A stretch of DNA of 64,000 nucleotides. Origin: Octopus vulgaris. Its lineage: Eukaryota. Under the pieces are notes generated by a model. That model made no database searches, was not told the origin of the DNA, and saw only the letters and a list, made by a program, of their open reading frames with translations. Below are positions 8,085-63,560 of the stretch, one piece after another. The DNA lies in contig OX597815.1 in assembly GCA_951406725.2 (NCBI GenBank), forward strand, positions 70,618,001 to 70,682,000, written 5' to 3'. Each line of letters opens with the position of its first letter. Within the stretch, counting starts at the first letter, position 1. Position numbers and translations under genes: made by a program.

Positions 8085-10188
8085 TAAATATTTGTTGTGC
8101 AAGATTTTTTATGTGAAGTCATGTGTTGAAACAGATATTGTTATATTTCGGAATGGTCATATTGCCAGTTTAGCCAATAAAAACACACGCACTATATATT
8201 TGGTGTTATTTTGCACATGCACTAGGAGCTAGTATAAGAGTTACCCTAAAAGGCCACACATTTAAATTTAATAATAAAATATATGCCCAGGACGAGGGGG
8301 CAGCCATCGGTGTTAGTATCGCTGGTGATGTGGCCAACCTCTTCATGGTATGGTGGGACAGAAGGCTTAAAGAATGCCTACTGCAGAAATCCATACTCGT
8401 AAACATGTACTCTCGCTATGTTGATGATATCAATATAGTAGTAAAGGCACCCCCACAAGAGAGTACTGTTGATATAGTAATAGAAACTAATACTATGGAG
8501 AGCATCCAGCAAATAGCTAACTCCATCCACCAGAGTATTAAGGTCACAATAGACTACCCCACTAAACACCCCAACCATAGACTACCAGTACTAGACACTG
8601 AACTCTGGCTAGAAATTGTGAAAAATAAAACCCAAATCCTTCATTCATACTATGCAAAACCTATGGCCTCAAAATACCTGATCCACCGGAACTCAGCCAT
8701 TGCGGGCAATGCCAAATTCAATATTTTGATGGCAGACCTCGTCAGAATAATGAGAAATGTGTCACGCATGTGCGAGCCTACAGAATTAAAGAGACACATA
8801 CAGTATTTCATTCACCGCATGCAGTTCTCAGGTTACAGCCATAAAGAAAGGATCAGAGTATACAAAGGAGCCATGAAGAAATTTGATAATATATTATGTA
8901 ATGATAGGAATGGGATTTGCCCACTCTATAGGAATAAGTCATGGAACACTATAGAAAGGACAAAAAAGAAAATAGGGAAGGCCAACTCTTGGTATGATAG
9001 CCATAAATACCAGAGTGTCATGTTCGTTGACACCACCCCTGGAGGTGAACTAGCGTACCGCTTTAGAAGGACCCTAGATAAACTTAAACTAAGAATTAAG
9101 GTTGTTGAAAAGCCAGGCAACCCTATCAGATCTATAATTGGTAGAAGCTATCCTTTTAGTAGAACTCTCTGTACGGATAACTATTGCACTGTATGTAGAT
9201 TTAGCCCACAAACGAACTGTAAAGCCAGAAATGTGGTCTATAGTATAAGATGTATAGAGGGACGATGCAGTAACAAGACAGTAACATACGTAGGGGAAAC
9301 TGCAAGAAGCATTGGTGAGCGGGTGAATGAACATTGGAGACAACTCAAGGAAGGTAAAAGCTCATCGATTCTGTACCAACACGCCGAACAAGAACACGGG
9401 GGATCAATCAATAACATAGAGATTAAGATATTGTCCACACATAGAACAGATGCAACAATTAGACAAATTACAGAAGCTACATATATAATAGAAAATAAAC
9501 CTAGCCTGAATAGAAAACTAGAATGGAGCAATAGCGCACACCACAACATATGACAATAGTGGATCCTGCAAACATAATAAATACACAGGTAATTAAAGAA
9601 ATAGAAATGAATATCTATATGTGTATGTATGTGTGTATATATGTATGTATATGTATATGTATATGTATGTATATATATATATGTATATGTATATATATAT
9701 TTTTTTTTTTTTCGATTTTTTTCGATTAGATTTATTATTATTATTACTAATATTGTTGTTATACATACAAACATATGTAATGATAATAATGGGTGGATGT
9801 AAACACATGAACAAAATTAGAACAAAAGCAACAACAACAAAAACAAAATACAAATTACAAGAATGTATATAACCAGAAGATACAAATATTACAGGCATCC
9901 CCCCACACACACTAAATAAACATAGACGCACATAGAGATATAAGCATGCGCAAATGAAGACATACAATAGAAATACAAAATGGCTGACGGTTAGTAAGGA
10001 GAGACACAAGTAAGTGAGAAGAAAACAAAGGACCACTGATGCGGTCACAGGAGTGTGACGAAAGAACTTTGGCCGAAATAAGATTAAGATTAATGTAAAA
10101 AATAAATATCACTGAAGCAAAATAACACCAAATATATAGTGCGTGTGTTTTTATTGGCTAAACTGGCAATATGACCATTCCGAAATAT

Positions 10189-22791: not shown

Positions 22792-23100
22792 GGCTAATAC
22801 AACCAATTATTATAAAATAATATGGCTAACACAACTAATTATTATAAAATAACATCTAATTATCATAAAATAAGGCGGCAAGCTGGCAGAATCGTTAGCA
22901 CGCCGGGCGAAATGCGTAGCCGTATTTCGTCTGTCGCACATGTGTTCGTGAAGTAAGAATTGCTGTTTCGTGGTGTTAATATTGTTAACAACTGTTGTTT
23001 CTTGTTAAACTGTTGAATAACTTAACTGTTGGAGTTTTCAATTGAAAACACTTAGTGCTTGTGGTAGCACGCGTTGTTCATTCCCCCTTTGGGGGGAAGA

Positions 23101-24627
23101 ATGTCGTCTAGCATGGAGCCTACCGTTGGAGCAGAAATACTTGTTTCTCTTGTTGAGAGGAGGAAATACATGTCCGGCGAGGAGCCAACTACAGACAAGG
23201 AAATAGGGGTTTCCCCCGCTACAAGAAGGAATAGCAGAGAGGATAATATATTTGATATTTTTGGAGATGTGTCTGAGAGCTCGTTAGAACTTTCACCAGA
23301 AGAGTTTCCGACTTTGCCAGAGAACAAAGGCATTGTGTCGAAGAGAATAATTGATGTGCCTAGCATCCAGATAGAACCAAAAAATGGAAAAAAAAGTTTT
23401 GCGTTGGCTGCTGGGGGTGGAACCCAGATACTGTCGACGAATAAAAGCGAAATTATGAAATACAGCAAAATGATGGAAATAACTGACAACAGTGTGAAAA
23501 TTGAACCTCCGCAAAAGTTATTACAGGAAGAAAAGCAAAAAACAATAATTTTCAAAACATATTGTCTACAAAATAGAAAAATTGAAAGAATGTCAGAAGA
23601 GAAAATAGAAAAGTGCTTAAAGCCAATATTGGGCGATGTAGTATTTCTGAGAAGAGGAAAAAAATTCGGAACGGTGGAAGTAAGGTTCACCAATAAAGAA
23701 ATAGCACACAAGAACTCAGTTGAAACGTTGAAAACGAACGACGTGGAGTTAATACCCTATTATATGGGGATGAGGACGTCGCGAATAAAAATTACAAGGG
23801 TCCCGCCAGAGGTCGAACCTATGTGGTTGTTGGCGGCAGTCCTAATCAAAGAGGTAGAAAAAATTACTCTCCTCCAGGCTACCGCTACGGAAAACCCACG
23901 CTGGGATGGTCAAACAATTAATCTTCTCATTCAAGCGGACCCTAAAATAATTCAAACAATTCCTGAGACAATTGAGGTAGGGGAGGAGAACCTCGTGGTG
24001 TTTGTTGAGGGCCGAAAACCTCGATGTTTTTTATGTGGTCAATTAGGCCACATTCGAAGGAACTGCAAGGAAAATGAAGAAGAGGAGGAAGAGGAGAAAA
24101 AAGACAAAGAGGAAGAAGATAAAGAAGAAACAGATGAGAAAAAAACAACAAACAAAAGAAAAATACAACCAGCAACCCAGCCGAGAGCGGCGACTACTAC
24201 AGAACAACGACCAAAAAAGACTGCCAGAAGAGAAAAAGAAGAAAAAGGCATAATAGCCGTATACACTAAAGATACTGAGCTCATGAGAGACATTCAACTC
24301 ATAAAGACTGTAAAAAAAATTGATAACCTTTCAGAGGAATTTATCAATTACGACATATATGAAGTCTCAAATAAGACTTATAGAATTCTACAAAATAAGT
24401 ACAGAAAGACTGTATCTTCATTGAGATTAGATTTTAACAAGTCGATATTTCATGGATTACCAGCTCCGATCCCGCGAGAAAAGGAAAAGGTGGAGATTCC
24501 CCCTCCACCTGATAATTCTGTGTCGGTGGTGAGACGGGATTTTGACAAATCTATTTCCCAAGACCGTCCACCTCCGACCCTGGATAAAAAAAAAGGTGGA
24601 GGGTCCCCCTCCACCGGACAATCCTAA
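23101..24627 (+). CDS. LINE ORF1 nucleic-acid-binding protein with CCHC zinc knuckle
   Basis: Uninterrupted ORF (first ATG at 23101) with CFLCGQLGHIRRNC followed by an acidic/basic low-complexity tract. Lies directly upstream of ORF2. Confidence 0.88.
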   Translation: MSSSMEPTVGAEILVSLVERRKYMSGEEPTTDKEIGVSPATRRNSREDNIFDIFGDVSESSLELSPEEFPTLPENKGIVSKRIIDVPSIQIEPKNGKKSFALAAGGGTQILSTNKSEIMKYSKMMEITDNSVKIEPPQKLLQEEKQKTIIFKTYCLQNRKIERMSEEKIEKCLKPILGDVVFLRRGKKFGTVEVRFTNKEIAHKNSVETLKTNDVELIPYYMGMRTSRIKITRVPPEVEPMWLLAAVLIKEVEKITLLQATATENPRWDGQTINLLIQADPKIIQTIPETIEVGEENLVVFVEGRKPRCFLCGQLGHIRRNCKENEEEEEEEKKDKEEEDKEETDEKKTTNKRKIQPATQPRAATTTEQRPKKTARREKEEKGIIAVYTKDTELMRDIQLIKTVKKIDNLSEEFINYDIYEVSNKTYRILQNKYRKTVSSLRLDFNKSIFHGLPAPIPREKEKVEIPPPPDNSVSVVRRDFDKSISQDRPPPTLDKKKGGGSPSTGQS

Positions 24628-24642
24628 TTAAACAGGTAAGTG

Positions 24643-27600
24643 ATGGCTATTCACATTGGTTGTTTAAATGTTCATGGCCTGTTGTCAAGCTGGAAGCAAG
24701 GACGCTTTCTGAATGACATCAGGTCGAGAAATTTGGATGTAATTGTTGCAACGGAAACCCGGGTGAAGGGGCCAAGAGATCTGCTCCCCCTCCTGAACGG
24801 CTACGAGAAATACGTTTCTCCGAGTCGGGCGGGAGGTGGGGGTGGGGTGTTGGTCCTACTAAAAAGAAACCGGGTAGCCGAGAAAAAGTTGTTTTTTCTG
24901 ACCCAGAAGGCAGGCTGGTCGTTCTCGACTTGACATTCAGTTGTGGCAAGACAATCAGGCTGGTCGCTATTTATGCACCAAACATTATTGGCCCGCAAAC
25001 TGAATATTTTCGTGGCCTAGGAAAGTTCCTAGCCACGTCGCATTCACTAGTAGTGTTAGGAGACTCTAATACAATATGTGCAGCACACACAGATTGTGTT
25101 GGCTCAAACTCGAACATGAACAGAAAATGTAACACAGGCTTTCGGGATCTGCTAAGTCAATTTCAGCTAGCAGATCCATATAGGTTGGAGCACCCGAACA
25201 CTCCACAGTGGACGTGGTCAAATAGTGACGGGTCTACCAGAACATATCTAGATAGGATTTTAATTAGAGAAAAAGATAAGTCCATAGTTGAGTGTCCACA
25301 GTTTTTTCTAGTCAGCTACAGTGACCACAAGATGGTTACCTGTAAACTGACGGTAGATAAGTTGCATAGACAGGGATCTGGCTACTGGAAACTCAATACG
25401 TCCCTTTTGGCGATTGAGGAGTACAGAAAGCGGATCAAGATGTTAATACAGAGGGCATTAACAGGTACCATCATTAATAACAAATGGTGGTACGCCCTAA
25501 AAAGAGCCATCAAATATGAGTCTATTAGGTTTAGCATAAGTTTAGCTAAGAAGGGACGTAAAATAGGAGATGGTCTAGTTAAGGAACTAGAAGAAGCCTG
25601 GAGGACTGGTAATACAGACCAAGCGAGGGTGAAAAGACTGGAGTTAAACCAGCATCTTGAAGCCCACCACATGGGAAGTATTACCAGAGCTAAGTTACGT
25701 GCAATGGGAAGTGAAGGAATCAAAGCCGCTGGATGGGCCCGAGTGGTGGAAGCTCGGCAAGGAAATAGTTCCTCTATTCGGTCTTTGACGAATCAAAATG
25801 GTGTCTTGATAAACGAACCCGAGAAAATGTGTGAGGTCTTTCGGGAGTACTTCGCCCAGCTGTTCGGGGGTGACGGCGGTCCTGGTGGTGGGAGAGCCCT
25901 CGAGGACTTTCTTACCGGGCTGCCGTGCCTCTCGGGGTCGGATGCGGAGTCTTGCGAAGGGCCAATCACACTTGAGGAGGTGATGGAGGCTTTGGCCGAT
26001 TGTAAAGCGGGTAAGTCACCGGGACTTGATGGTCTTCCGTACGAGCTGTATAAATGTATGCCAGACTTGTTCGGGCAACTACTGACTGACGTGTACGCGA
26101 ACTGGAAACAGAATGGGTTTATCCCCAGATCTGTGCGCCGGGGAGTAGTGACGTTGGTCAGAAAGGACCCGGACAAGGGGGACGTTCTAGAGAATTTCAG
26201 GCCCATCACTCTGTTAAACGCAGAAGTGAAGATTTTGGCCAAGGTTCTAGCAAAAAGGTTGGCGCGTGTCGCGAATGGTATAGTCGGGGAGGCACAGACA
26301 TGTGCCATCCCAGGCAGAACCATTCAGGATACCCTCCATCTTATTCGCTATACCATAGAGAGGTTTGGTAATAAATCTGGCAAAGGTGGGGCATTGGTGC
26401 ATTTGGACCAGTCTAAAGCTTTTGATAGGGTTGAACATCGATACCTAGCGACTGTGCTTGCGCGGTTTGGCCTGGGCCTTGGCTTCCTCAGGTGGTTTAT
26501 CGCTTTGTACCACAACATTGACTCGATAGTTCGGGTGAACGGTTTCCTTTCGAAGCCGTTCTGCATCAGACGCTCGGTTCGTCAAGGATGTCCGCTTTCA
26601 CCACTTTTGTATGTGATGGCTCTCGAGCCATTACTGCAAAGGTTGAGTGGCATCCCGAGAGAACCAGGACTAGAGGAGTTTGTTACGGCTTTCGCGGATG
26701 ATATCACTATCAGTGTAACCACAGTGGCACGCCTACGTGAAGTAGGTAAGACTATTGAGGCTTACGAGGAGGTAGCAGGAGCAAAGATTAACCGGGAAAA
26801 GTCGGTCGGCTTGCAGCTCGGCACCTGGGTTGGCAAGTCGATGCCTTCAGACAGTGTTGTTAGGCGCTGGACGGAGGGACCGGTTAAGTTGCTGGGAGTC
26901 TGGTTTGGACCAGGCCTCCAGATAGAGAAGAACTGGACGGAGGTATTGAGCAGGGTGACTGCAGTAGTCAAGACCTGGTCTTGGCGGTGGCTATCCCTGA
27001 AAGGGAGGGCGGAAGTGGCCAATGTGTTTATCGCATCGGTCATTACCTACCGCCTGACTGTCGTGCCCTGTCCGGATTCGTGGTTGATCAGGTTGGAGAG
27101 ACAGCTCTTTCGCTTTTGTGGAAGGGCAGGTCGCCACTTGTGAAACGCTCTGTCTGCTGTCAAAAGCCTTTAAATGGAGGTTTAGGGATGCCTTGGTTAA
27201 TGATGCGCAGACATGCGTTGAGGTTGAGGCACCTCTGGATTCTCCTGGATAGTGAACGGGTGTGGTCTCCGCTGGCCAGACAAATGTTCCCTGAGTTCAA
27301 GAGTTTTTGCGAACAGGAAGCCTGGTGTTCTCGTAGACCGAGGTCGAGTGAGTGGCATAAAGAGTGCCGTAAGGCCCTCTTGCTGTTCCGGCGCTCGGGC
27401 AACGCCAGCGGTGGGGGTTCCACACGGATTTTATATAGTGGGTTGGTAGAGTCTGAATGCGACGATGGCCTGGGGTCGACTCTAGGTCTCGGATTTATTC
27501 AACTGGACAGCTTGTTTCATCGTACATTCGGGTTGAGAACGTTGGACAACTTCCAAAAGTCCTTAACCTGGCAATGCTACAGAGGTGCCTTGCCCGTTTG

Positions 27601-28041
27601 GGATAAGCTCGCAAGACATGGTAAACGTCAGTCGCCGACCTGTCCAAGATGCGGGGGGACAGGGAAACCGTCCCTCACGCTATTGTTCAGTGTCCGGAGA
27701 TAACTGAAATGTGGGCTTATGCTGAACATCTGTTGTCCGGCGAAGGAAGAGTACGACTGTCGACTGAGTCAATTATAAAAATTGACCCACCGGGAGTTCT
27801 AACGAACGAAGGTAAGAATTGTTTTCTCACGGTTGTAGCAATAGCAAAAGAGGCTGTATGGAATACTAGGATAAAAGGAATTAAGACAGGCAACTTTATC
27901 TCTGGTGACAATTTACGATCCTTTTTTTCTTTTCATTTGAAAAGGAAACTGTGGCTGGAGAAGAGGTGTCTGTCAGAGTGTACGTTCCAAAAGAGATGGA
28001 AGTATGTTGCACGAGTGTTGTGCGTGCAAGGAACCGTGTGA
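24643..28041 (+). CDS. LINE ORF2 (APE endonuclease, RT, Cys/His C-terminus) with three frameshifts
   Basis: LNVHGL, TET, IYAPN, LDRI, SDH; KSPGLDG, FRPITLLN, LDQSKAFD, QGCPLSP, FADD; CPRC...ETVPHAIVQC. Frameshifts near 24890, 27115 and 27655. Confidence 0.92.
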
Positions 28042-57964: not shown

Positions 57965-58823
57965 TAGTTACTTTAAATCAGGTACCATATGTCCAAAAGC
58001 AATTTTACCCGGCCATCCTTCTTGCCAACCGAAGTGCCATTACCGATGTCCAACAGTTGCTTTGAAAAGTTTCTGTCTGCATCATCACCGCTGAGCTGCA
58101 CTCTCATGCTGGTTGTGAGTCTCAGCTTTTGCACACTACTCCATAGGTAGGACGACTTTATAGTGGAATTTACCTCGTCAGCTCTAGTCCCCTTTGGAAC
58201 CACGGGAAGGGTTTGTTTAAAGTCACCTGGAAGTAAAACTGTGGCACCTCCTATAAGCCTGATGTTGTGTCTCAGATCCTGAAGGGCCATGTCAAGAGCG
58301 TCAAAGGAAACCTTATGGCTCATTGTCGCCTCATCCCAGATAATCAACCTGCATTCACCCAAGAGTTTGCATTCTATAGAACCACGACTAATGTTGCAGT
58401 TTGCCTTCTCTTTCTTGGACAGGTCCAAAGGGAGTTTGAAGCACGAATGAGCTGTGTGGCCACCACTTAGCAAAGTTGCAGCTATTACACTTGACGCCAC
58501 TGCTATGGCAATGTTTCATTTGACGCAGTTTATCCAGAAGTTTGATGACAAATATCTTGTCAGTTCCACCTGGAGTATCCAGCAAGAAAAGACTTCCTCT
58601 TTCACTTTCAATGCTTGAAATAATAGTCTTATAAACACCCAGTTGGTCCTCTATCAGTTTGTGTTCGTTATCAGCTATTTACGCCGTCATTTCCTCGATG
58701 TCATAGCTGATTTCTCGCAGGTACTCAATCGTGAGATTGTTTGCTGCCTGCTCCGGTTGAGGCAAACCAAATGTGGCAATGCCTTGACTTCCCATACCTT
58801 GCACTCAGATGTACAAGTCAAGT
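57965..58823 (-). pseudogene. Helitron PIF1 helicase region, decayed
   Basis: LDTPGGTDKIF (Walker A relic), ASSVIAATLLSGGHTAHS, LIIWDEATM, GDFKQTLPVV, LRLTTSMRV, LLDIGNG. Confidence 0.92.
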
Positions 58824-58828
58824 AGTGC

Positions 58829-59107
58829 TGTGGGATGACGTCAGCAGCCGGGTGCGTTGACCGGAAGCTGGGGCAACCGGAAGGGGTCAGCCGTCAGGCG
58901 TGCGCAGGGAGCGGGAATTGCGCCCTTTCCAACGTGGGTCTTGCAGGTGACAAGACGTGTGAGGACGTCGCTAAGGGTTTGGGCTAGCAACTGCTATCGT
59001 TAGTGTTCGGGTCGGGGCTGTGAGGAAGGACTAGTCATCACTGGAGGGTCTCCGTCACTAAGAAGAGAAGGTAGGTGCCTCTATATTCAAATCGCGCACA
59101 CACTACA
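58829..59107 (+). repeat. 5' LTR (279 bp)
   Basis: Direct repeat of 62700-62978; five substitutions counted by eye. Confidence 0.97.
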
Positions 59108-59119
59108 AGCTATTTCGGC
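59108..59119 (+). promoter_or_regulatory. Non-canonical primer-binding site complementary to tRNA-Phe nt 1-12
   Basis: AGCTATTTCGGC abuts the 5' LTR. Its reverse complement GCCGAAATAGCT is the 5' end of animal cytosolic tRNA-Phe(GAA). Confidence 0.8.
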
Positions 59120-59151
59120 CGTTCTTAAACATTTACATTTTTTTCAACACG

Positions 59152-59916
59152 ATGTCTGCAAAAATTAGGATCGCCAGTGACGTCGTCAGACCTTTTAATG
59201 GCGAAGGCGATGTAGTGGCCTGGATTCGTAAAATCAGGCTGGTGGTAAGACTGCAGGGCATAAGCGACGTGGCGAGTCTTATGGCGCTGTATTTAGAAGG
59301 GAGCGCGTTAACGCTCTACCTAGAGATGGATGAAGAGGAACGACTCAGCGAGGAGAATATAGAGCGACGCTTGCGTGATGCCTACACGGAATGCGAGTAC
59401 ACAGCTTTTGCTAATCTAGGTGCAATCAGGTGGACGGGAGGCCAAGTGGATGACTTTGCATCAGAAGCTAGAAGGCTAGCGACTCTGGCCGGGTTTGCCG
59501 GAGAAGGACTGGAGAGAGCAGCCCGACTGGCGTTCGTGAATGGGTTCCCCGACGATGTAGGGATTCACCTACAACGACTGCCCGGGGTTAAAAAGATGTC
59601 GTTGAGCGAACTTGTAGCTCAGGTTCGCGTGTTGACGAGACACTCTGGGCGGAAGGCGATAGCGATGGCGGTGACGGAGGCGCGTAAAGACGGACGACGT
59701 CCCGAGAAAGAGGTACAGAAGCTTACCGTGCAACGAGAGCGGCCGTTCTCAGGACGGTGTTTTAGATGCCAGGGACCGCACATGGCGCGGGACTGTACGC
59801 AGCCGGGGCCCGTTTGCTATCGATGCAGGCAGACAGGGCACATTGCCCGTGATTGCGACCAGGGAAACGACCGCGGGGAAGTTGCTGCCTCTCGAACTTT
59901 CCCCTCAAACGAGTAG
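59152..59916 (+). CDS. gag: Gag with two CCHC zinc knuckles
   Basis: Intact 254-aa ORF; CFRCQGPHMARDC and CYRCRQTGHIARDC. Confidence 0.93.
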   Translation: MSAKIRIASDVVRPFNGEGDVVAWIRKIRLVVRLQGISDVASLMALYLEGSALTLYLEMDEEERLSEENIERRLRDAYTECEYTAFANLGAIRWTGGQVDDFASEARRLATLAGFAGEGLERAARLAFVNGFPDDVGIHLQRLPGVKKMSLSELVAQVRVLTRHSGRKAIAMAVTEARKDGRRPEKEVQKLTVQRERPFSGRCFRCQGPHMARDCTQPGPVCYRCRQTGHIARDCDQGNDRGEVAASRTFPSNE

Positions 59917-59920
59917 AGGC
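59862..59920 (+). promoter_or_regulatory. Predicted -1 ribosomal frameshift signal
   Basis: G GGA AAC in the gag frame, 6-nt spacer, stem GGGGAAGTT/AACTTTCCCC, and loop GCCTCT able to pair with AGAGGC (59915-59920). The protease is in the -1 frame. Confidence 0.8.
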
Positions 59921-62686
59921 GCTATTGGAGACGCTGCCATTGATTGACGTGGAGGCCGAGGGCGAGACGTTCAAGGCCCTTGTGGATACGGGCTGTACGA
60001 CCACCCTGGTGACTTCGAGGGTGACGAAGGAATGGAACGGGGTGAGTAGTGTCCGGGCGGTCGACGGCAGCGAAATCCGTTGCAGAGGCAGCAGTAAGGT
60101 AGAGATAGTGGTGCGCGGCGCGACGCTAAGGCTGCAGGCAATTGTGGCCGAACGCGTGATAGATAGAGTTGATGTGGTGATGGGGATGGACGCCATCAAC
60201 TGCCTCGGTGGCGTCAGTGTTGTGGGAAATGAGGTCACGTTCGGAAGCGTGGGGGCGTCGTGCACTGCGAGTCAGGATCGCCAGAGAGAGCAGAGCCCCG
60301 CGAGGGACTGCGCCGCTTACACCATCGAGGACAAAGACTTTCAGGCGGTGGACGATAGAGTGGCGATGGAAGGACGAGCCCCCGACGCTGGAGAACAGGG
60401 TGAGCTGTTACCAGCATACCCTGAAAGGCCACGCCAGGGTCGAGTTTGAAGACAAGGTGGAGAGGTGGATCGAGGAAGGGGTCCTTGTCCCTTGGAAGGA
60501 GGAGTTAGCGGGCGGAGTGCTACCCCTGATGACGGTGGTGCAGCCTACGAAGGGAAAAGTCAGACCGGTGCTGGACTTCAGGGAGCTAAACCAGCACATA
60601 TCATGTCACACGGGAGGTGAGGCGACAGACGTTTGTGGCGAGGCATTACGTAAGTGGAGACAGTCGACTGAGGCAGCGACGATTGTCGACTTGAGATCGG
60701 CATACTTGCAGCTCCATGTGAGCGACAAACTGTGGCGATATCAGCTGGTGCGGTACAAGGGCCGGACGTACTGTCTAACCAGGCTGGGTTTCGGGCTGAA
60801 TTCCGCTCCGAAGATCATGGCGGCAGTGCTTAGGTTCGTCCGAGGGAAAGACGGCAAGATTAGAAAGGCCACCAGCTCCTACATTGACGACATTTTGGTG
60901 GACGAAACTGTAGTGCCAGCCGACGAGGTAGTTAGACATCTGGAGAAGTTCGGACTGATTGCTAAGCCACCGGAGTCGATTGAAGGGGGAGCCGCGCTGG
61001 GGCTGAAGCTGCGAAGAGATGGATCAGGTGAATTGGTGTTCCGGAGAGGAAATGAAATCCCAGAGCTGAGTTCCAGCGTCAGCAGGAGAGAGCTGTTCTC
61101 GGTGTGTGGGAAGTTAGTCGGTCACTACCCGATCGTTGGATGGCTGCGCACGGCCTGTAGTTACACCAAGAGACGAGCAGAAGGAGAGAGGTGGGGCGAC
61201 AAGGTGGGAGAAGGGACGGTGGCGATGATGCAGGAGATCCTAGAGAGGACAAGAGCGGAAGACCCGGTCAGAGGGAACTGGTACGTGACCAAGACGAAAT
61301 GCGGGACCATCTGGTGTGATGCTAGCAGTATAGCGATAGGGGTGGTGTTGGCAACCGAAGGCACTGCGGTGGAGGACGCGGCCTGGCTTCGGAAAGCAGA
61401 TGATTTCAACCACATCAATGTCGCCGAATTAGACGCGCTGCTGAAACTTGGCCTTGAAATGGGGGCTGCGCACGATTGAAATCCGGACGGATTCGGCCAC
61501 TGTGCTTGGCTGGTGACAGGAGAGTGCGGACGAAAGGTGCTGCGGAGATGTTAGTGAAGGGCCATCTAGGAGTTCTAGGTGAATTGATCGCCGAGTTCGG
61601 ACTGAAGCTGAACGTGGTTTTCGTGCCTTCGGAGAAAAACAGGGCGGACGTACTGACCAGGGTGAAAAGAGCGTGGTTGGAAGAACCGGAGGAGGCCCGG
61701 AAAGGGATAGCTGCGGCGTGTCGGTTGGATGACTCTGAACTGAAGGAACTGCATGCTATGCATCACCTGGGTGTGGACAGGACCCTGTATCTGGCAAAAA
61801 AAATTGATGCTGACGTCACTAGGAGAAGCGACCGGAAGGTGGTCGGGAGCTGCGACAGGTGTCAGTCCATCGACCCTGCTCCGTGTGGACATGAACAGGG
61901 AAGCCTTTCCGTGGAGCAGAACTGGAAAAGGCTAGCTGTGGATGTGACACACTACCGTCAGCGAATGTACCTCTCCATGGTCGACTGCGGGCCGGGCCGG
62001 CTGGCCATTTGGAGGAGTTGAGATCGGGCATTGCTGACGAGATCGTGCAGATCCTGAACGGGATATTTTTAGAGAGAGGTCCCGTGGAAGAACTACTGAT
62101 GGACAACGGGGCGGCGTTTCGTTCGGAAGCATTGAAGGTTATGCTTGATCGGTGGAATGTGCGACGCTTGATCAGAGCAGCGTATAGGCCGAGCGGTAAC
62201 GGGATCGTGGAGAGGCACCATCGGACAGTCAAGGCCATAGCGGAAAGAGGGCACATTTCGCCGCTTGAAGCAGTTTTTTGGTACAACTTGTCTCCCCGAT
62301 CCGGACAAGCTGAGGAATCTGTGCCGCAGAGAGCTGTGTTCAAATATGAATGGAGGCACCCGAGCAAAGCGCCGGAGGGTCACGAGGAAGAGAAGGGACC
62401 CGTTCGCGTGAAAATAGGGGAGGAAGTCTGGGTCAAGCCACCAAAGGCGCGCTGTACGTCTCAATGGAGCAGAGGAACGGTGACGGCGATCAATTCCAGA
62501 AGCAACGTATCCGTAGATGGAACACCACGACACGTCTTGGACCTTCGCAGGATTGTTGCTTCGACGGACGATGATTCTGGAGAGGGGGAGAACGAGGAGC
62601 CCAGCTTGAGAAGATCTCGACGAGCAAGGCGCTCTCCCGGTTGGATGGTGGACTACAACATGGAGCGGAGAGATTGTGATCTTTAA
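59865..62686 (+). pseudogene. pol: pol (protease, RT, RNase H, integrase) broken by frameshifts near 60345, 61445-61515 and 62015
   Basis: ALVDTG; RPVLDFRELN, VDLRSAYLQ, GFGLNSAP, YIDD; WCDAS, HINVAELDA, TDSATV, NRADVLTR; H...H...CDRC, LAVD, DNG, GIVER. Confidence 0.93.
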
Positions 62687-62699
62687 GATCAGGGTGGCG

Positions 62700-62978
62700 T
62701 GTGGGATGACGTCAGCAGCCGGGTGCGTTGACCGGAAACTGGGGCAACCGGAAGGGGTCAGCCGTCAGGCGTGCACAGGGAGCGGGAATTGCGCCCTTTC
62801 CAACGTGGGTCGTGCAGGTGACAAGACGTGTGAGGACGTCGCTAAGGGTTTGGGCTAGCAGCTGCTATCGTTAGTGTTCGGGTCGGGGCTATGAGGAAGG
62901 ACTAGTCATCACTGGAGGGTCTCCGTCACTAAGAAGAGAAGGTAGGTGCCTCTATATTCAAATCGCGCACACACTACA
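62700..62978 (+). repeat. 3' LTR (279 bp)
   Basis: Direct repeat of 58829-59107, preceded by a weak purine-rich tract AAGATCAGGGTGGCG. Confidence 0.97.
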
Positions 62979-63560
62979 AGTGCCTCATTGTAAATGGCAT
63001 TATTGAATGTGACAATTTCCGTTGAGTTTTGCCTTTGAATCCTTCCTAGGATGTTCTCTGCCATGCTGGTTTTGTTGGTCGCCCAAAGCTTGAGAGGTTC
63101 ACCCAAACCGCATGTCATCATGATAGAAAATAGCTGGTACAGTTGACTTGGTACTCTGCTGACTGTTGCCTCCTCCAGTGTCTGATTCCAGTGAGCATTG
63201 GCCTCCAGTAATCCATGTTTGGCGCAGGTTTCTCTGTAGGTCGTGCAAACTTCCTCATTGTGTCTTCGAAAGTCTGTGAATGATGTAGGACCTCTGGCAG
63301 TGTGCAACAGTAGACGCTGAAAGAAGCACTCCTACTGATTAGAATGCACAGTAGTGTACACTCGTCCGATGGCCTCACTTCTGAAGACAGCATCTTCTTC
63401 CCAGCCAACAACGTGAGCCCCTTGATTGTGTCTGTTCTATCTATTGTATGCTCAGGTATAGTACACGGAAACTTCAACATACAACAGTGTTCAGGCGAAC
63501 ATATCACACTCGCTTAATTTGAAGAAAGCTGTCAAAGTGGTTTCTGATGTGACACACTTG
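62979..63560 (-). pseudogene. Helitron Rep-to-helicase linker region, decayed
   Basis: TTLTAFF, LLLHTARGPTSFTDFR, TYRETCAKHGLLE...HWNQTLEEA. Reading continues in frame across the LTR insertion (YNEAL|LDLYI*VQGMG...FGLPQP). Confidence 0.9.

What the first reader, a model, noticed from the sequence alone, without database searches (positions are those of the whole stretch)
60208..62686. Compact 4.15-kb element with Gypsy domain order but atypical, DIRS/BEL-like RT and RNase H motifs
Seen: RT motifs RPVLDFRELN / VDLRSAYLQL / LGFGLNSAP / YIDD, RNase H WCDAS...HINVAELDA...TDSATV...VPSEKNRADVLTR, a very short connection and a short DDE integrase. Established: HINxxEL is typical of DIRS RNase H, and typical Gypsy RT has R.C.DYR.LN and MPFGL. 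Inference: this may belong to a deep lineage separate from Metaviridae, consistent with its unusual primer site.
Basis: partly seen in the sequence, partly recalled or inferred. Interest (0 to 1): 0.72.

Follow-up and report, generated by a model that had tools for sequence, protein, structure and literature searches.

The report
Retrotransposon primed from tRNA's wrong end
This is a young copy of a widespread family of invertebrate jumping genes that we could not find described; its primer site matches the first twelve letters of a host transfer RNA instead of the last, so it likely starts copying itself from a short piece cut off the tRNA's front end, a priming route absent from the papers searched.

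Summary
The element is real: window 58829-62978, 279-bp LTRs (TG...CA, 5 differences), 5-bp target duplication, gag then -1-frame PR-RT-RH-IN. All quoted motifs are present; the 'very short connection' is not (145 aa vs 146-162 in Gypsy). It belongs to a large lineage marked by Pfam DUF7047 (named hosts: cephalopod, gastropod, crustaceans, sea spider, Trichuris).

Main result: the primer site abuts the LTR and is the exact complement of nucleotides 1-12, the 5' end, of host tRNA-Phe. It was found in 30 of 30 testable copies chosen by protein (0-2 mismatches). In metagenome relatives it switches among other tRNA-type 5' ends (26 of 32 fit one pattern, set after seeing the data). This fits none of the three primer types listed in PMC6317226. 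Priming by a cut 12-nt fragment is inferred, not shown.

RT has a very long stem and nests in no Gypsy subclade. RNase H resembles archaeal-type, not Gypsy-type, enzymes. But an AU test does not reject grouping with Gypsy (p=0.33), and no DIRS or Troyka sequence could be put in a tree. It is not Troyka. The scan had not noted this lineage before.

The parts
58824..58828 (+). 5-bp target-site duplication, left copy (AGTGC)
58829..59107 (+). 5' LTR, 279 bp, TG...CA
   Evidence: 5 of 279 positions differ from the 3' LTR
59108..59119 (+). primer-binding site AGCTATTTCGGC, directly after the LTR's CA; exact complement of nt 1-12 of host tRNA-Phe(GAA)
59152..59916 (+). gag, 254 aa, two CX2CX4HX4C zinc knuckles
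   Evidence: (PF00098 E 7e-10)
59862..59868 (+). slippery heptamer G GGA AAC in the gag frame (predicted -1 frameshift site)
   Evidence: 23 of 25 relatives with -1 overlap have an in-frame heptamer
59875..59920 (+). stem (59875/59895) 6 nt after the slippery site, with a loop sequence (59887) complementary to 59915: predicted H-type pseudoknot
   Evidence: stem by RNAfold; second stem by inspection; covariation not tested
59853..60449 (+). pol piece 1: aspartic protease (DTG)
   Evidence: PF13975 E 4e-6
60181..61479 (+). pol piece 2: RT (RPVLD 60562, YIDD 60880), thumb/connection = DUF7047, first half of RNase H (WCDAS 61312, HINVAEL 61411)
   Evidence: (PF23088 E 6e-23)
61458..62021 (+). pol piece 3: end of RNase H and HHCC start of integrase (the TDSATV motif at 61487 lies in a third frame between two breaks)
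61895..62686 (+). pol piece 4: integrase core D-D(35)-E and short tail, no GPY/F
62684..62699 (+). purine-rich tract abutting the 3' LTR (putative PPT)
   Evidence: same position and near-identical sequence across families
62700..62978 (+). 3' LTR
62979..62983 (+). target-site duplication, right copy
57976..58828 (-). host of the insertion, downstream part: decayed Helitron-type PIF1 helicase gene
   Evidence: (PF05970 E 4e-47); the Helitron label is recalled
62984..63331 (-). host of the insertion, upstream part of the same helicase gene

Best explanation
This is a recently inserted, broken copy of an LTR retrotransposon lineage whose primer site is the exact complement of the first 12 nucleotides of a host tRNA, and which likely primes reverse transcription from a 12-nt 5' tRNA fragment that its own RNase H would cut off. 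Shown: LTRs, 5-bp duplication, gene order, -1 overlap with slippery site, intact catalytic residues in the family, the primer site, its position flush against the LTR, its sharp end at tRNA nucleotide 1, and its switching among tRNA-type 5' ends. Inferred, in order: (1) Gag and a -1 frameshifted Gag-Pol form a particle and nucleocapsid anneals the 5' strand of the tRNA acceptor stem plus nt 8-12 to the site (12-bp duplex, predicted -18.7 kcal/mol); (2) the tRNA is cut after nt 12 to give a 3'-OH, most likely by the element's RNase H as in Tf1 self-priming but on a tRNA in trans (about 55:45 against a host-made, trimmed fragment); (3) minus-strand DNA starts directly on the LTR's terminal CA; (4) plus-strand strong-stop DNA runs off the primer's 5' end, so each cycle recopies the site from whichever tRNA primed, which explains the exact boundary and the switching; (5) a DDE integrase inserts the DNA with a 5-bp stagger. 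The lineage is probably a separate deep branch of LTR elements rather than a Gypsy clade (about 65%).
For: Site = complement of the 5' end of 8 of 8 inspected tRNA-Phe genes. Copies picked by DUF7047, not by the site: 30 of 40 testable, of which 21 exact, 6 with one and 3 with two mismatches, all after CA, gag identity 38-95%. Conservation stops right after tRNA nt 1. Metagenome and MAG relatives picked by RT peptides (70 loci, 32 testable): 26 have AGCTA-N4-GGC just before gag against 0.006 expected per 210-nt window. Variants match other tRNA starts: L140 = 5' end of this genome's tRNA-Lys(CTT); L144 = 5' end of its tRNA genes with a 'cata' loop (Met by my reading), with the paired change at nt 12; the two commonest variants begin tRNA-Thr or tRNA-Phe genes in viral contigs (28 of 120 loci). 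Those two variants are not clustered on the RT tree (288 and 235 of 500 shuffles as low) and close sisters L107/L109 differ. No self-primer in the LTR: best match 3-7 mismatches, shuffle level. No canonical 3'-end site: best 3 of 12 mismatches, inside gag. RNase H keeps all four acidic residues; best solved stand-alone RNase H matches are archaeal-type (4e19 Z 16.5, rmsd 2.1, 122 aligned; 3u3g and 3aly Z 14.3) above HIV (11.7), human (11.6), E. coli (10.7); the Sulfolobus enzyme cuts dsRNA (PMC9719913, passages); Tf1 RNase H cuts between bases 11 and 12 to make its primer (PMC7175516, passages).
Against: No primer, cut or cDNA was observed; only contigs of runs guessed to be RNA were available. 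The pre-set strict test (at most 1 mismatch to this copy's site) found only 7 of 39 metagenome loci, controls 1 and 0; the wider pattern was defined afterwards. Hosts of the metagenome elements are unknown, so matching of site to each host's tRNA is shown only in this genome; five singleton variants were not matched to any tRNA gene here. The archaeal likeness may reflect compact fold only: Ty3 and CaMV RNase H were compared only inside whole RT chains (Z 21.7, 22.5), and tblastn of the domain found nothing in plasmids or phages. The lineage lacks a His or Arg in the C-terminal RNase H loop (role recalled). Deep placement unresolved.
Confidence: 0.7

Rival explanations
1. Same primer, different maker: the host supplies 5' tRNA fragments cut in the D arm, and a nuclease trims them back to the 12 paired nucleotides; the element's RNase H plays no part in making the primer.
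For: Half-tRNA primers of Copia and Ty5 are cut tRNAs (PMC10886601 section 3.6; PMC6317226 passages). D-loop 5' fragments of 14-16 nt are known (recalled). All sequence evidence above fits equally.
Against: Pairing stops at nt 12 inside the D stem; the next three tRNA bases mismatch the LTR end in register, so an extra trimming step is needed. The fixed 12-nt length across Phe-, Lys- and Met-type sites suggests an element-side ruler (inference).
Confidence: 0.3
2. The 12-mer is only a docking or packaging site (as with the second arm of the bipartite Ty3 site, recalled) and DNA synthesis starts elsewhere, from the tRNA's 3' CCA, a 2'-OH or a protein.
For: Binding the 5' strand frees the tRNA's 3' end. 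No primer has been observed.
Against: The site abuts the LTR's terminal CA in 30 of 30 and 24 of 26 cases, where minus-strand synthesis must begin; no complement of the tRNA 3' end lies near; docking alone does not explain jumps between discrete tRNA sequences on the tree.
Confidence: 0.12
3. The lineage is a fast-evolving Metaviridae (Gypsy) clade that replaced or remodelled its RNase H and changed primer; its odd motifs are long-branch divergence.
For: Gene order, 5-bp duplication, CCHC knuckles, Gypsy-type protease and H2C2/rve integrase Pfams; profile scores highest with Gypsy for PR (33 bits), RT (52) and IN (103); single-RNase H fold equally close to Ty3, CaMV and MLV; p-AU 0.33; the four nearest non-lineage long proteins are Gypsy, though only at E 0.06-0.24.
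Against: Nests in no supported Gypsy subclade in RT or IN trees; Mag grouping rejected; PF17917/PF17919 on none of 240 listed homologue rows and at most 15 bits in 12 scanned lineage proteins against 54-94 in two Gypsy proteins; RNase H profile gives at most 4 bits on any reference; no GPY/F.
Confidence: 0.3
4. The RT-RNase H module is sister to BEL/Pao or derived from a DIRS-like element and was joined to a Gypsy/retrovirus-type protease and integrase.
For: BEL joins the lineage's stem (88/86). By eye on published alignments: 18 of 53 ungapped identities with Dictyostelium DIRS-1 RT against 11 with Tf1 and 12 with SFV1 (one example each, hand count); 7 of 12 with Cer7 around FGLN. A sub-branch of the lineage has a different integrase, so module swaps happen here.
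Against: Long-branch warning on the BEL join; no PF05380 hit in 12 scanned or 240 listed rows; RT profile scores decayed BEL at 5 bits; gag is 254 aa without BEL domains; no tyrosine recombinase; no DIRS sequence could be tested.
Confidence: 0.35

Closest known systems
Tf1/sushi self-priming Gypsy elements (PMC7175516, PMC6317226; passages)
   Same: Short RNA:RNA duplex at a site next to the LTR; primer is the 5' end of an RNA; 11-12 nt long; needs a cut to make the 3'-OH.
   Different: Tf1 uses its own mRNA in cis; here the LTR has no complement of the site and the match is to tRNA nt 1-12. Proteins do not group with chromovirus-like references.
Half-tRNA priming of Drosophila copia, Ty5, Osser, Bianca, fungal Copia/Helenus (PMC10886601 section 3.6; PMC6317226 passages)
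   Same: Primer is a 5' part of a cut tRNA.
   Different: Those sites pair with the anticodon stem-loop and occur only in Copia; here the site pairs with nt 1-12 and gene order is PR-RT-RH-IN.
Troyka / Kuafuorterviruses (PMC12440569, PMC11673190)
   Same: Aquatic-animal LTR lineage long filed under Gypsy; same domain order; single RNase H; no GPY/F.
   Different: Troyka has CG...CG ends, 3-bp duplications, IADD/VADD/LADD, CX2CX8-10HX4C, mostly 5-6 kb; this has TG...CA, 5 bp, YIDD, CX2CX4HX4C, 4.2 kb.
Metaviridae (Ty3/Gypsy)
   Same: Domain order, ends, duplication length, knuckles, RT-to-RNase H spacing, overall RT-RH fold (Ty3 RT Z 21.7).
   Different: RNase H sequence type, RT motifs, no GPY/F, primer site, very long RT stem.
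Belpaoviridae (BEL/Pao) and DIRS
   Same: Local RT motif likeness by eye; BEL attaches to the stem in one tree.
   Different: No Pao peptidase family hit, small gag; DIRS lack DDE integrase and protease (PMC12440569).

Membership tests
LTR retrotransposon (Ortervirales-type) | Direct LTRs TG...CA, target duplication, gag, PR, RT, RH, DDE integrase | tested here: met
   (17 of 28 analysed copies with exact 5-bp duplication; 6 more are duplicates of one insertion, 1 has 4 of 5, 4 have none)
Metaviridae / Gypsy | Order PR-RT-RH-IN | tested here: met
   shared with BEL and Troyka, so not diagnostic
Metaviridae / Gypsy | RT nests within Gypsy | tested here: inconclusive
   In no supported subclade; Mag rejected p 0.017; broad grouping not rejected p 0.33; 14-17 Gypsy references only
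Metaviridae / Gypsy | Gypsy-type RNase H (PF17917/PF17919) | tested here: not met
   0 of 240 listed rows; at most 15 bits, below cut-off, in 12 proteins
Metaviridae / Gypsy | GPY/F motif in integrase (common, not universal per PMC12440569) | tested here: not met
   0 of 194
Troyka / Kuafuorterviridae | CG...CG ends, 3-bp duplication, xADD, CX2CX8-10HX4C | tested here: not met
Belpaoviridae / BEL-Pao | Pao peptidase A17 region (PF05380) and large gag | tested here: not met
Belpaoviridae / BEL-Pao | RT sister to or inside BEL | tested here: inconclusive
   88/86 with two decayed BEL copies, long-branch warning
DIRS | Tyrosine recombinase, no DDE integrase or protease | tested here: not met
   element has PR and DDE IN, no recombinase ORF
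DIRS | RT and RNase H group with DIRS; HINxxEL diagnostic (recalled) | not testable with these tools
   no DIRS sequence recovered; by-eye RT likeness only
Pseudoviridae / Copia | Order PR-IN-RT-RH | tested here: not met
Retroviridae / Loki / Odin | Tether plus second RNase H, env | tested here: not met
   single RNase H 145 aa after the RT active site, no env ORF
Known primer types (full tRNA 3' end; half tRNA; self-primer; PMC6317226) | Site complementary to tRNA 3' end, anticodon arm, or own 5' LTR | tested here: not met
   match is to tRNA nt 1-12; no LTR complement
5'-fragment priming (proposed) | 12-nt tRNA fragment attached to minus-strand DNA | not testable with these tools
   needs biochemistry or particle cDNA

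The most novel reading that the evidence does not exclude
A new superfamily-level lineage of reverse-transcribing elements, spread over molluscs, arthropods, nematodes and probably other eukaryotes, whose archaeal-type RNase H cuts a host tRNA after nucleotide 12 to make its own primer: a fourth priming mechanism, possibly with an RT-RNase H module that links BEL/DIRS to Gypsy-type integrase elements.
Probability: 0.35. Interest if true: 0.92.

Novelty: new variant of a known kind. Interest (0 to 1): 0.8.

Why it matters
Reviews list three ways for LTR elements to start reverse transcription (PMC6317226). A conserved site for the tRNA 5' end would be a fourth, and it is directly testable with purified RT-RNase H, a tRNA and a short RNA. 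It would give 5' tRNA fragments a role in priming or silencing transposons, where 3' fragments are the known players. It would explain why annotation tools that look for TGG or tRNA 3' ends miss these elements. The lineage is large (491 clusters at 50% identity with E at most 1e-30), unnamed except as DUF7047, and bears on how RT, RNase H and integrase modules were shuffled among Gypsy, BEL and DIRS.

Tried and rejected
Troyka/Kuafuortervirus: rejected on ends, duplication, RT motif and knuckle. Self-priming: rejected. Canonical 3'-end site: none. 'Very short connection': rejected. Rfam: no match at E up to 1 in 58700-63100; no tRNA gene in the window. Viral contigs hold no relative. DIRS references: 7 recombinase loci in the genome had no RT beside them; two motif scans of the genome found nothing; two scans of viral contigs gave one false hit each. 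Copia hits were too decayed for trees. The 52-row careful RT tree did not finish (quick tree only), so 33- and 31-row sets were used; the window's Penelope-like and LINE RT cut-outs were left out. No RNase H tree was built: the lineage profile aligns to no reference above 4 bits. The chromovirus AU test was not completed. tblastn of the RNase H domain against plasmids and phages: no match. Expression: no RNA holder listed; contigs of four runs guessed to be RNA cover the element but cannot show strand, start or level. ESM Atlas leads: unnamed eukaryote clusters at 0.95, Pao cluster only at 0.85; no sequences given. Literature: 10 searches found no description of the lineage, of DUF7047 (0 papers) or of a 5'-end primer site; the stored part of the Kuafuortervirus supplement (282,042 characters, cut) has no LGFGL motif; the Troyka supplements could not be read; Repbase, Dfam and GyDB could not be searched and may hold these families under Gypsy names.
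Full report
Observation. The finding lies inside a 4,150-bp LTR element at 58829-62978. Its 279-bp LTRs begin TG, end CA and differ at 5 positions; it is flanked by the duplication AGTGC. It interrupts a decayed PIF1-helicase gene on the minus strand (PF05970 E 4e-47). A 254-aa gag with two CX2CX4HX4C knuckles is followed by pol in four open pieces, order PR-RT-RH-IN. Two descriptors fail: RT-to-RNase H spacing is ordinary (median 145 aa, n=83, against 146-162 in 13 Gypsy references) and the integrase core is ordinary; only its tail is short, without GPY/F in 0 of 194 proteins.

Copies. A DNA search of the own genome (2.8 Gb; earlier scan notes call it an octopus, and the nearest named protein is from Argonauta at 68%) scored 30 of 1,095 candidates and returned about 25 near-full-length copies at 88-96% identity. 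Of 28 analysed, 17 have an exact 5-bp duplication, 1 has 4 of 5, 6 are duplicates of one insertion and 4 have none; intact LTR pairs differ at 0-10 positions of about 260-305. The family is young; no host rate is available to date it. Pol overlaps gag in the -1 frame with G GGA AAC and a stem 6 nt downstream. Among 28 metagenome relatives with both frames, 25 overlap in -1 (23 with an in-frame slippery heptamer) and 3 are fused (39 rows, 11 without adjacent gag).

Lineage. RT-RH searches gave 778 and 503 proteins among about 8,000 candidates each; all 240 listed rows carry PF23088 (DUF7047), none PF17917, PF17919 or PF05380. Named hosts are Argonauta, Aplysia, Petrolisthes, Oratosquilla, Nymphon and Trichuris; most rows are unnamed, many on contigs of about 4 kb. 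The exhaustive search found 491 clusters (50% identity) at E up to 1e-30 and 1,709 at 1e-10. Among proteins over 1,680 aa the only non-lineage hits were four Gypsy proteins at E 0.06-0.24.

Primer site. The 12 bases after the 5' LTR are the reverse complement of nt 1-12 of tRNA-Phe(GAA): 94 genomic matches of the tRNA start, 8 of 8 inspected being tRNA-Phe genes that begin at the match. CA plus the site occurs 287 times against 14 for the control, and 28 of 30 inspected loci have lineage gag or pol beside it by tblastn, with unlike LTRs; this set was chosen by the site and is circular. The non-circular test chose 40 of 150 DUF7047 loci across score classes: 10 lacked a gag start; of 30, 21 match exactly, 6 with one and 3 with two mismatches, all after CA. 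Outside this genome, 70 loci were chosen by RT peptides. The pre-set test of at most one mismatch found 7 of 39 with enough upstream DNA, controls 1 and 0, but showed recurring variants at the same place. With the pattern AGCTA-N4-GGC, defined afterwards, 26 of 32 testable loci match just before gag, against 0.006 expected. Of the other six, three have the site just outside or cut by the scanned window and three have further variants. The variable positions correspond to tRNA nt 4-7 in the acceptor stem; those for nt 8-11 stay fixed, and conservation ends after nt 1. One variant equals the 5' end of this genome's tRNA-Lys(CTT), another that of tRNA genes with a 'cata' loop, which I read as Met, including the paired change at nt 12. 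The two commonest variants start tRNA-Thr or -Phe genes in viral contigs (28 of 120 loci hold such a tRNA); their eukaryotic hosts are unknown. On a 35-row RT tree these two variants are no more clustered than shuffles, and sisters L107 and L109 carry different sites, as expected if the site is recopied from the primer. The LTRs hold no complement of the site and the element has no complement of the tRNA 3' end near the LTR.

Mechanism. Minus-strand synthesis must start at the LTR edge, and a tRNA paired by nt 1-12 offers no 3'-OH there unless cut after nt 12. Tf1 offers the precedent: its RNase H cuts between bases 11 and 12 of an RNA duplex (PMC7175516, passages). The RT-RH model (pLDDT 94) has one RNase H; whole-chain matches are MLV, CaMV, Ty3 and foamy RT at Z 21-22.5, and the best stand-alone RNase H matches are archaeal-type (Halobacterium Z 16.5, rmsd 2.1, 26% identity; LC11 and Sulfolobus 14.3) above HIV, human and E. 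coli (10.7-11.7). Pfam agrees: RVT_3 at 19-30 bits in 12 of 12 lineage proteins, Gypsy RNase H models at most 15. The Sulfolobus enzyme cuts dsRNA (PMC9719913, passages). I therefore favour cutting by the element, narrowly, over a host-made trimmed fragment. The archaeal likeness may be compactness only, and nothing here shows a cut. Run-off of plus-strand DNA at tRNA nt 1 would explain the sharp boundary and the switching (inference).

Placement. References came from this genome (Mag-, CsRn1- and other Gypsy types, labels by recalled motifs; two decayed BEL) and viral contigs (Gypsy, caulimoviruses, retroviruses). In the 33-row RT tree the lineage is one branch (99/96) on a stem of about 2, and lineage+BEL stand apart from Gypsy, caulimoviruses and retroviruses at 88/86; without BEL the stem is 3.7 and joins no Gypsy subclade. 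AU tests: with Mag rejected (p 0.017, group named after seeing scores); with all Gypsy+caulimoviruses not rejected (p 0.33). The 36-row integrase tree leaves the main group (100/99) unplaced and puts four longer members in a separate clade (100/100), so that sub-branch has another integrase. Profile scores favour Gypsy and retroviruses for PR, RT and IN and nothing for RNase H. By eye, the RT motif block shares 18 of 53 residues with DIRS-1, 12 with SFV1, 11 with Tf1, and Cer7/Tas BEL share the KAFLQ and FGLN look; these are single examples. No DIRS, Troyka or usable Copia sequence entered a tree, so the root and the DIRS question stay open.

Known systems. Not Troyka/Kuafuortervirus (PMC12440569, parts 1-4 of 5 read; PMC11673190, parts 1-2 of 3 and supplement parts 2-3 of 29 plus searches). 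PMC6317226 (passages) lists three primer types: full tRNA, half tRNA cut in the anticodon stem, self-primer; PMC10886601 (section 3.6) says truncated-tRNA primers pair at the anticodon loop and are confined to Copia. PMC8220671 and PMC3587641 (passages) describe annelid and crustacean clades, some unclassified, with no such site in the passages seen; PMC12859917 (passages) adds nothing. Ten searches found no description; Repbase, Dfam, GyDB and the Troyka supplements were out of reach and may hold these families as Gypsy entries.

Verdict. A real, young LTR element of a large unnamed lineage. Its primer site for the tRNA 5' end is well supported as a sequence fact and is the novel part; 12-nt fragment priming is a strong inference (about 0.8), cutting by its own RNase H a weaker one, and superfamily status likely but unproven (about 0.65). 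Interest 0.8; new variant of a known kind.

Noticed in passing
window 57976-58828 and 62984-63331 (minus strand): The element split one decayed PIF1-helicase (Helitron-type) gene; the reading continues across the target duplication.
   Followed up: partly
proteins P0442, P0451, P0473, P0480: A sub-branch of the lineage with longer proteins has an integrase that groups apart from the main lineage integrase (100/100): likely integrase replacement. Its primer site is unknown.
   Followed up: partly
protein P0372: A 2,125-aa protein with Gypsy RNase H Pfams but odd RT motifs; the best non-lineage RT score (52 bits) and unplaced in trees; may be another deep LTR lineage.
   Followed up: no
ESM Atlas: Nearest clusters without DUF7047 are unnamed 540-aa eukaryote proteins, commonest phylum Euglenozoa (3 records), score 0.95; could be VIPER/TATE-like or basal members.
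   Followed up: no
L014, L015, L018, L020, L021, L022, L024: Seven copies share one left flank (six also the right) on three contigs, several beside a rearranged piece of a second family at about 73% identity: segmental duplicates of one insertion.
   Followed up: partly
G000:C18:30147732-30157146: About 45 matches of the tRNA-Phe start in tandem with a 200-bp period.
   Followed up: no
window 58837-58850 and copies L002-L028: The LTR start holds a 14-bp unit whose copy number varies among copies and between the two LTRs of one copy.
   Followed up: no
last 6 bases of the 5' LTR, window 59102-59107: Duplex folding adds 3 pairs between tRNA nt 14-16 and the LTR end across a bulge; may be only the terminal inverted repeat.
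   Followed up: no
L167, L168, P0278, P0321: Lineage elements sit in contigs filed as bacterial MAGs and two proteins are named as Gammaproteobacteria: probably eukaryotic contamination.
   Followed up: no
window 8174-9550 and 23068-27700: Long ORFs of other retroelements, by recalled motifs a Penelope-like RT and a non-LTR element.
   Followed up: no
L321-L327: Seven tyrosine-recombinase loci in this genome without RT nearby, perhaps Crypton-like.
   Followed up: partly
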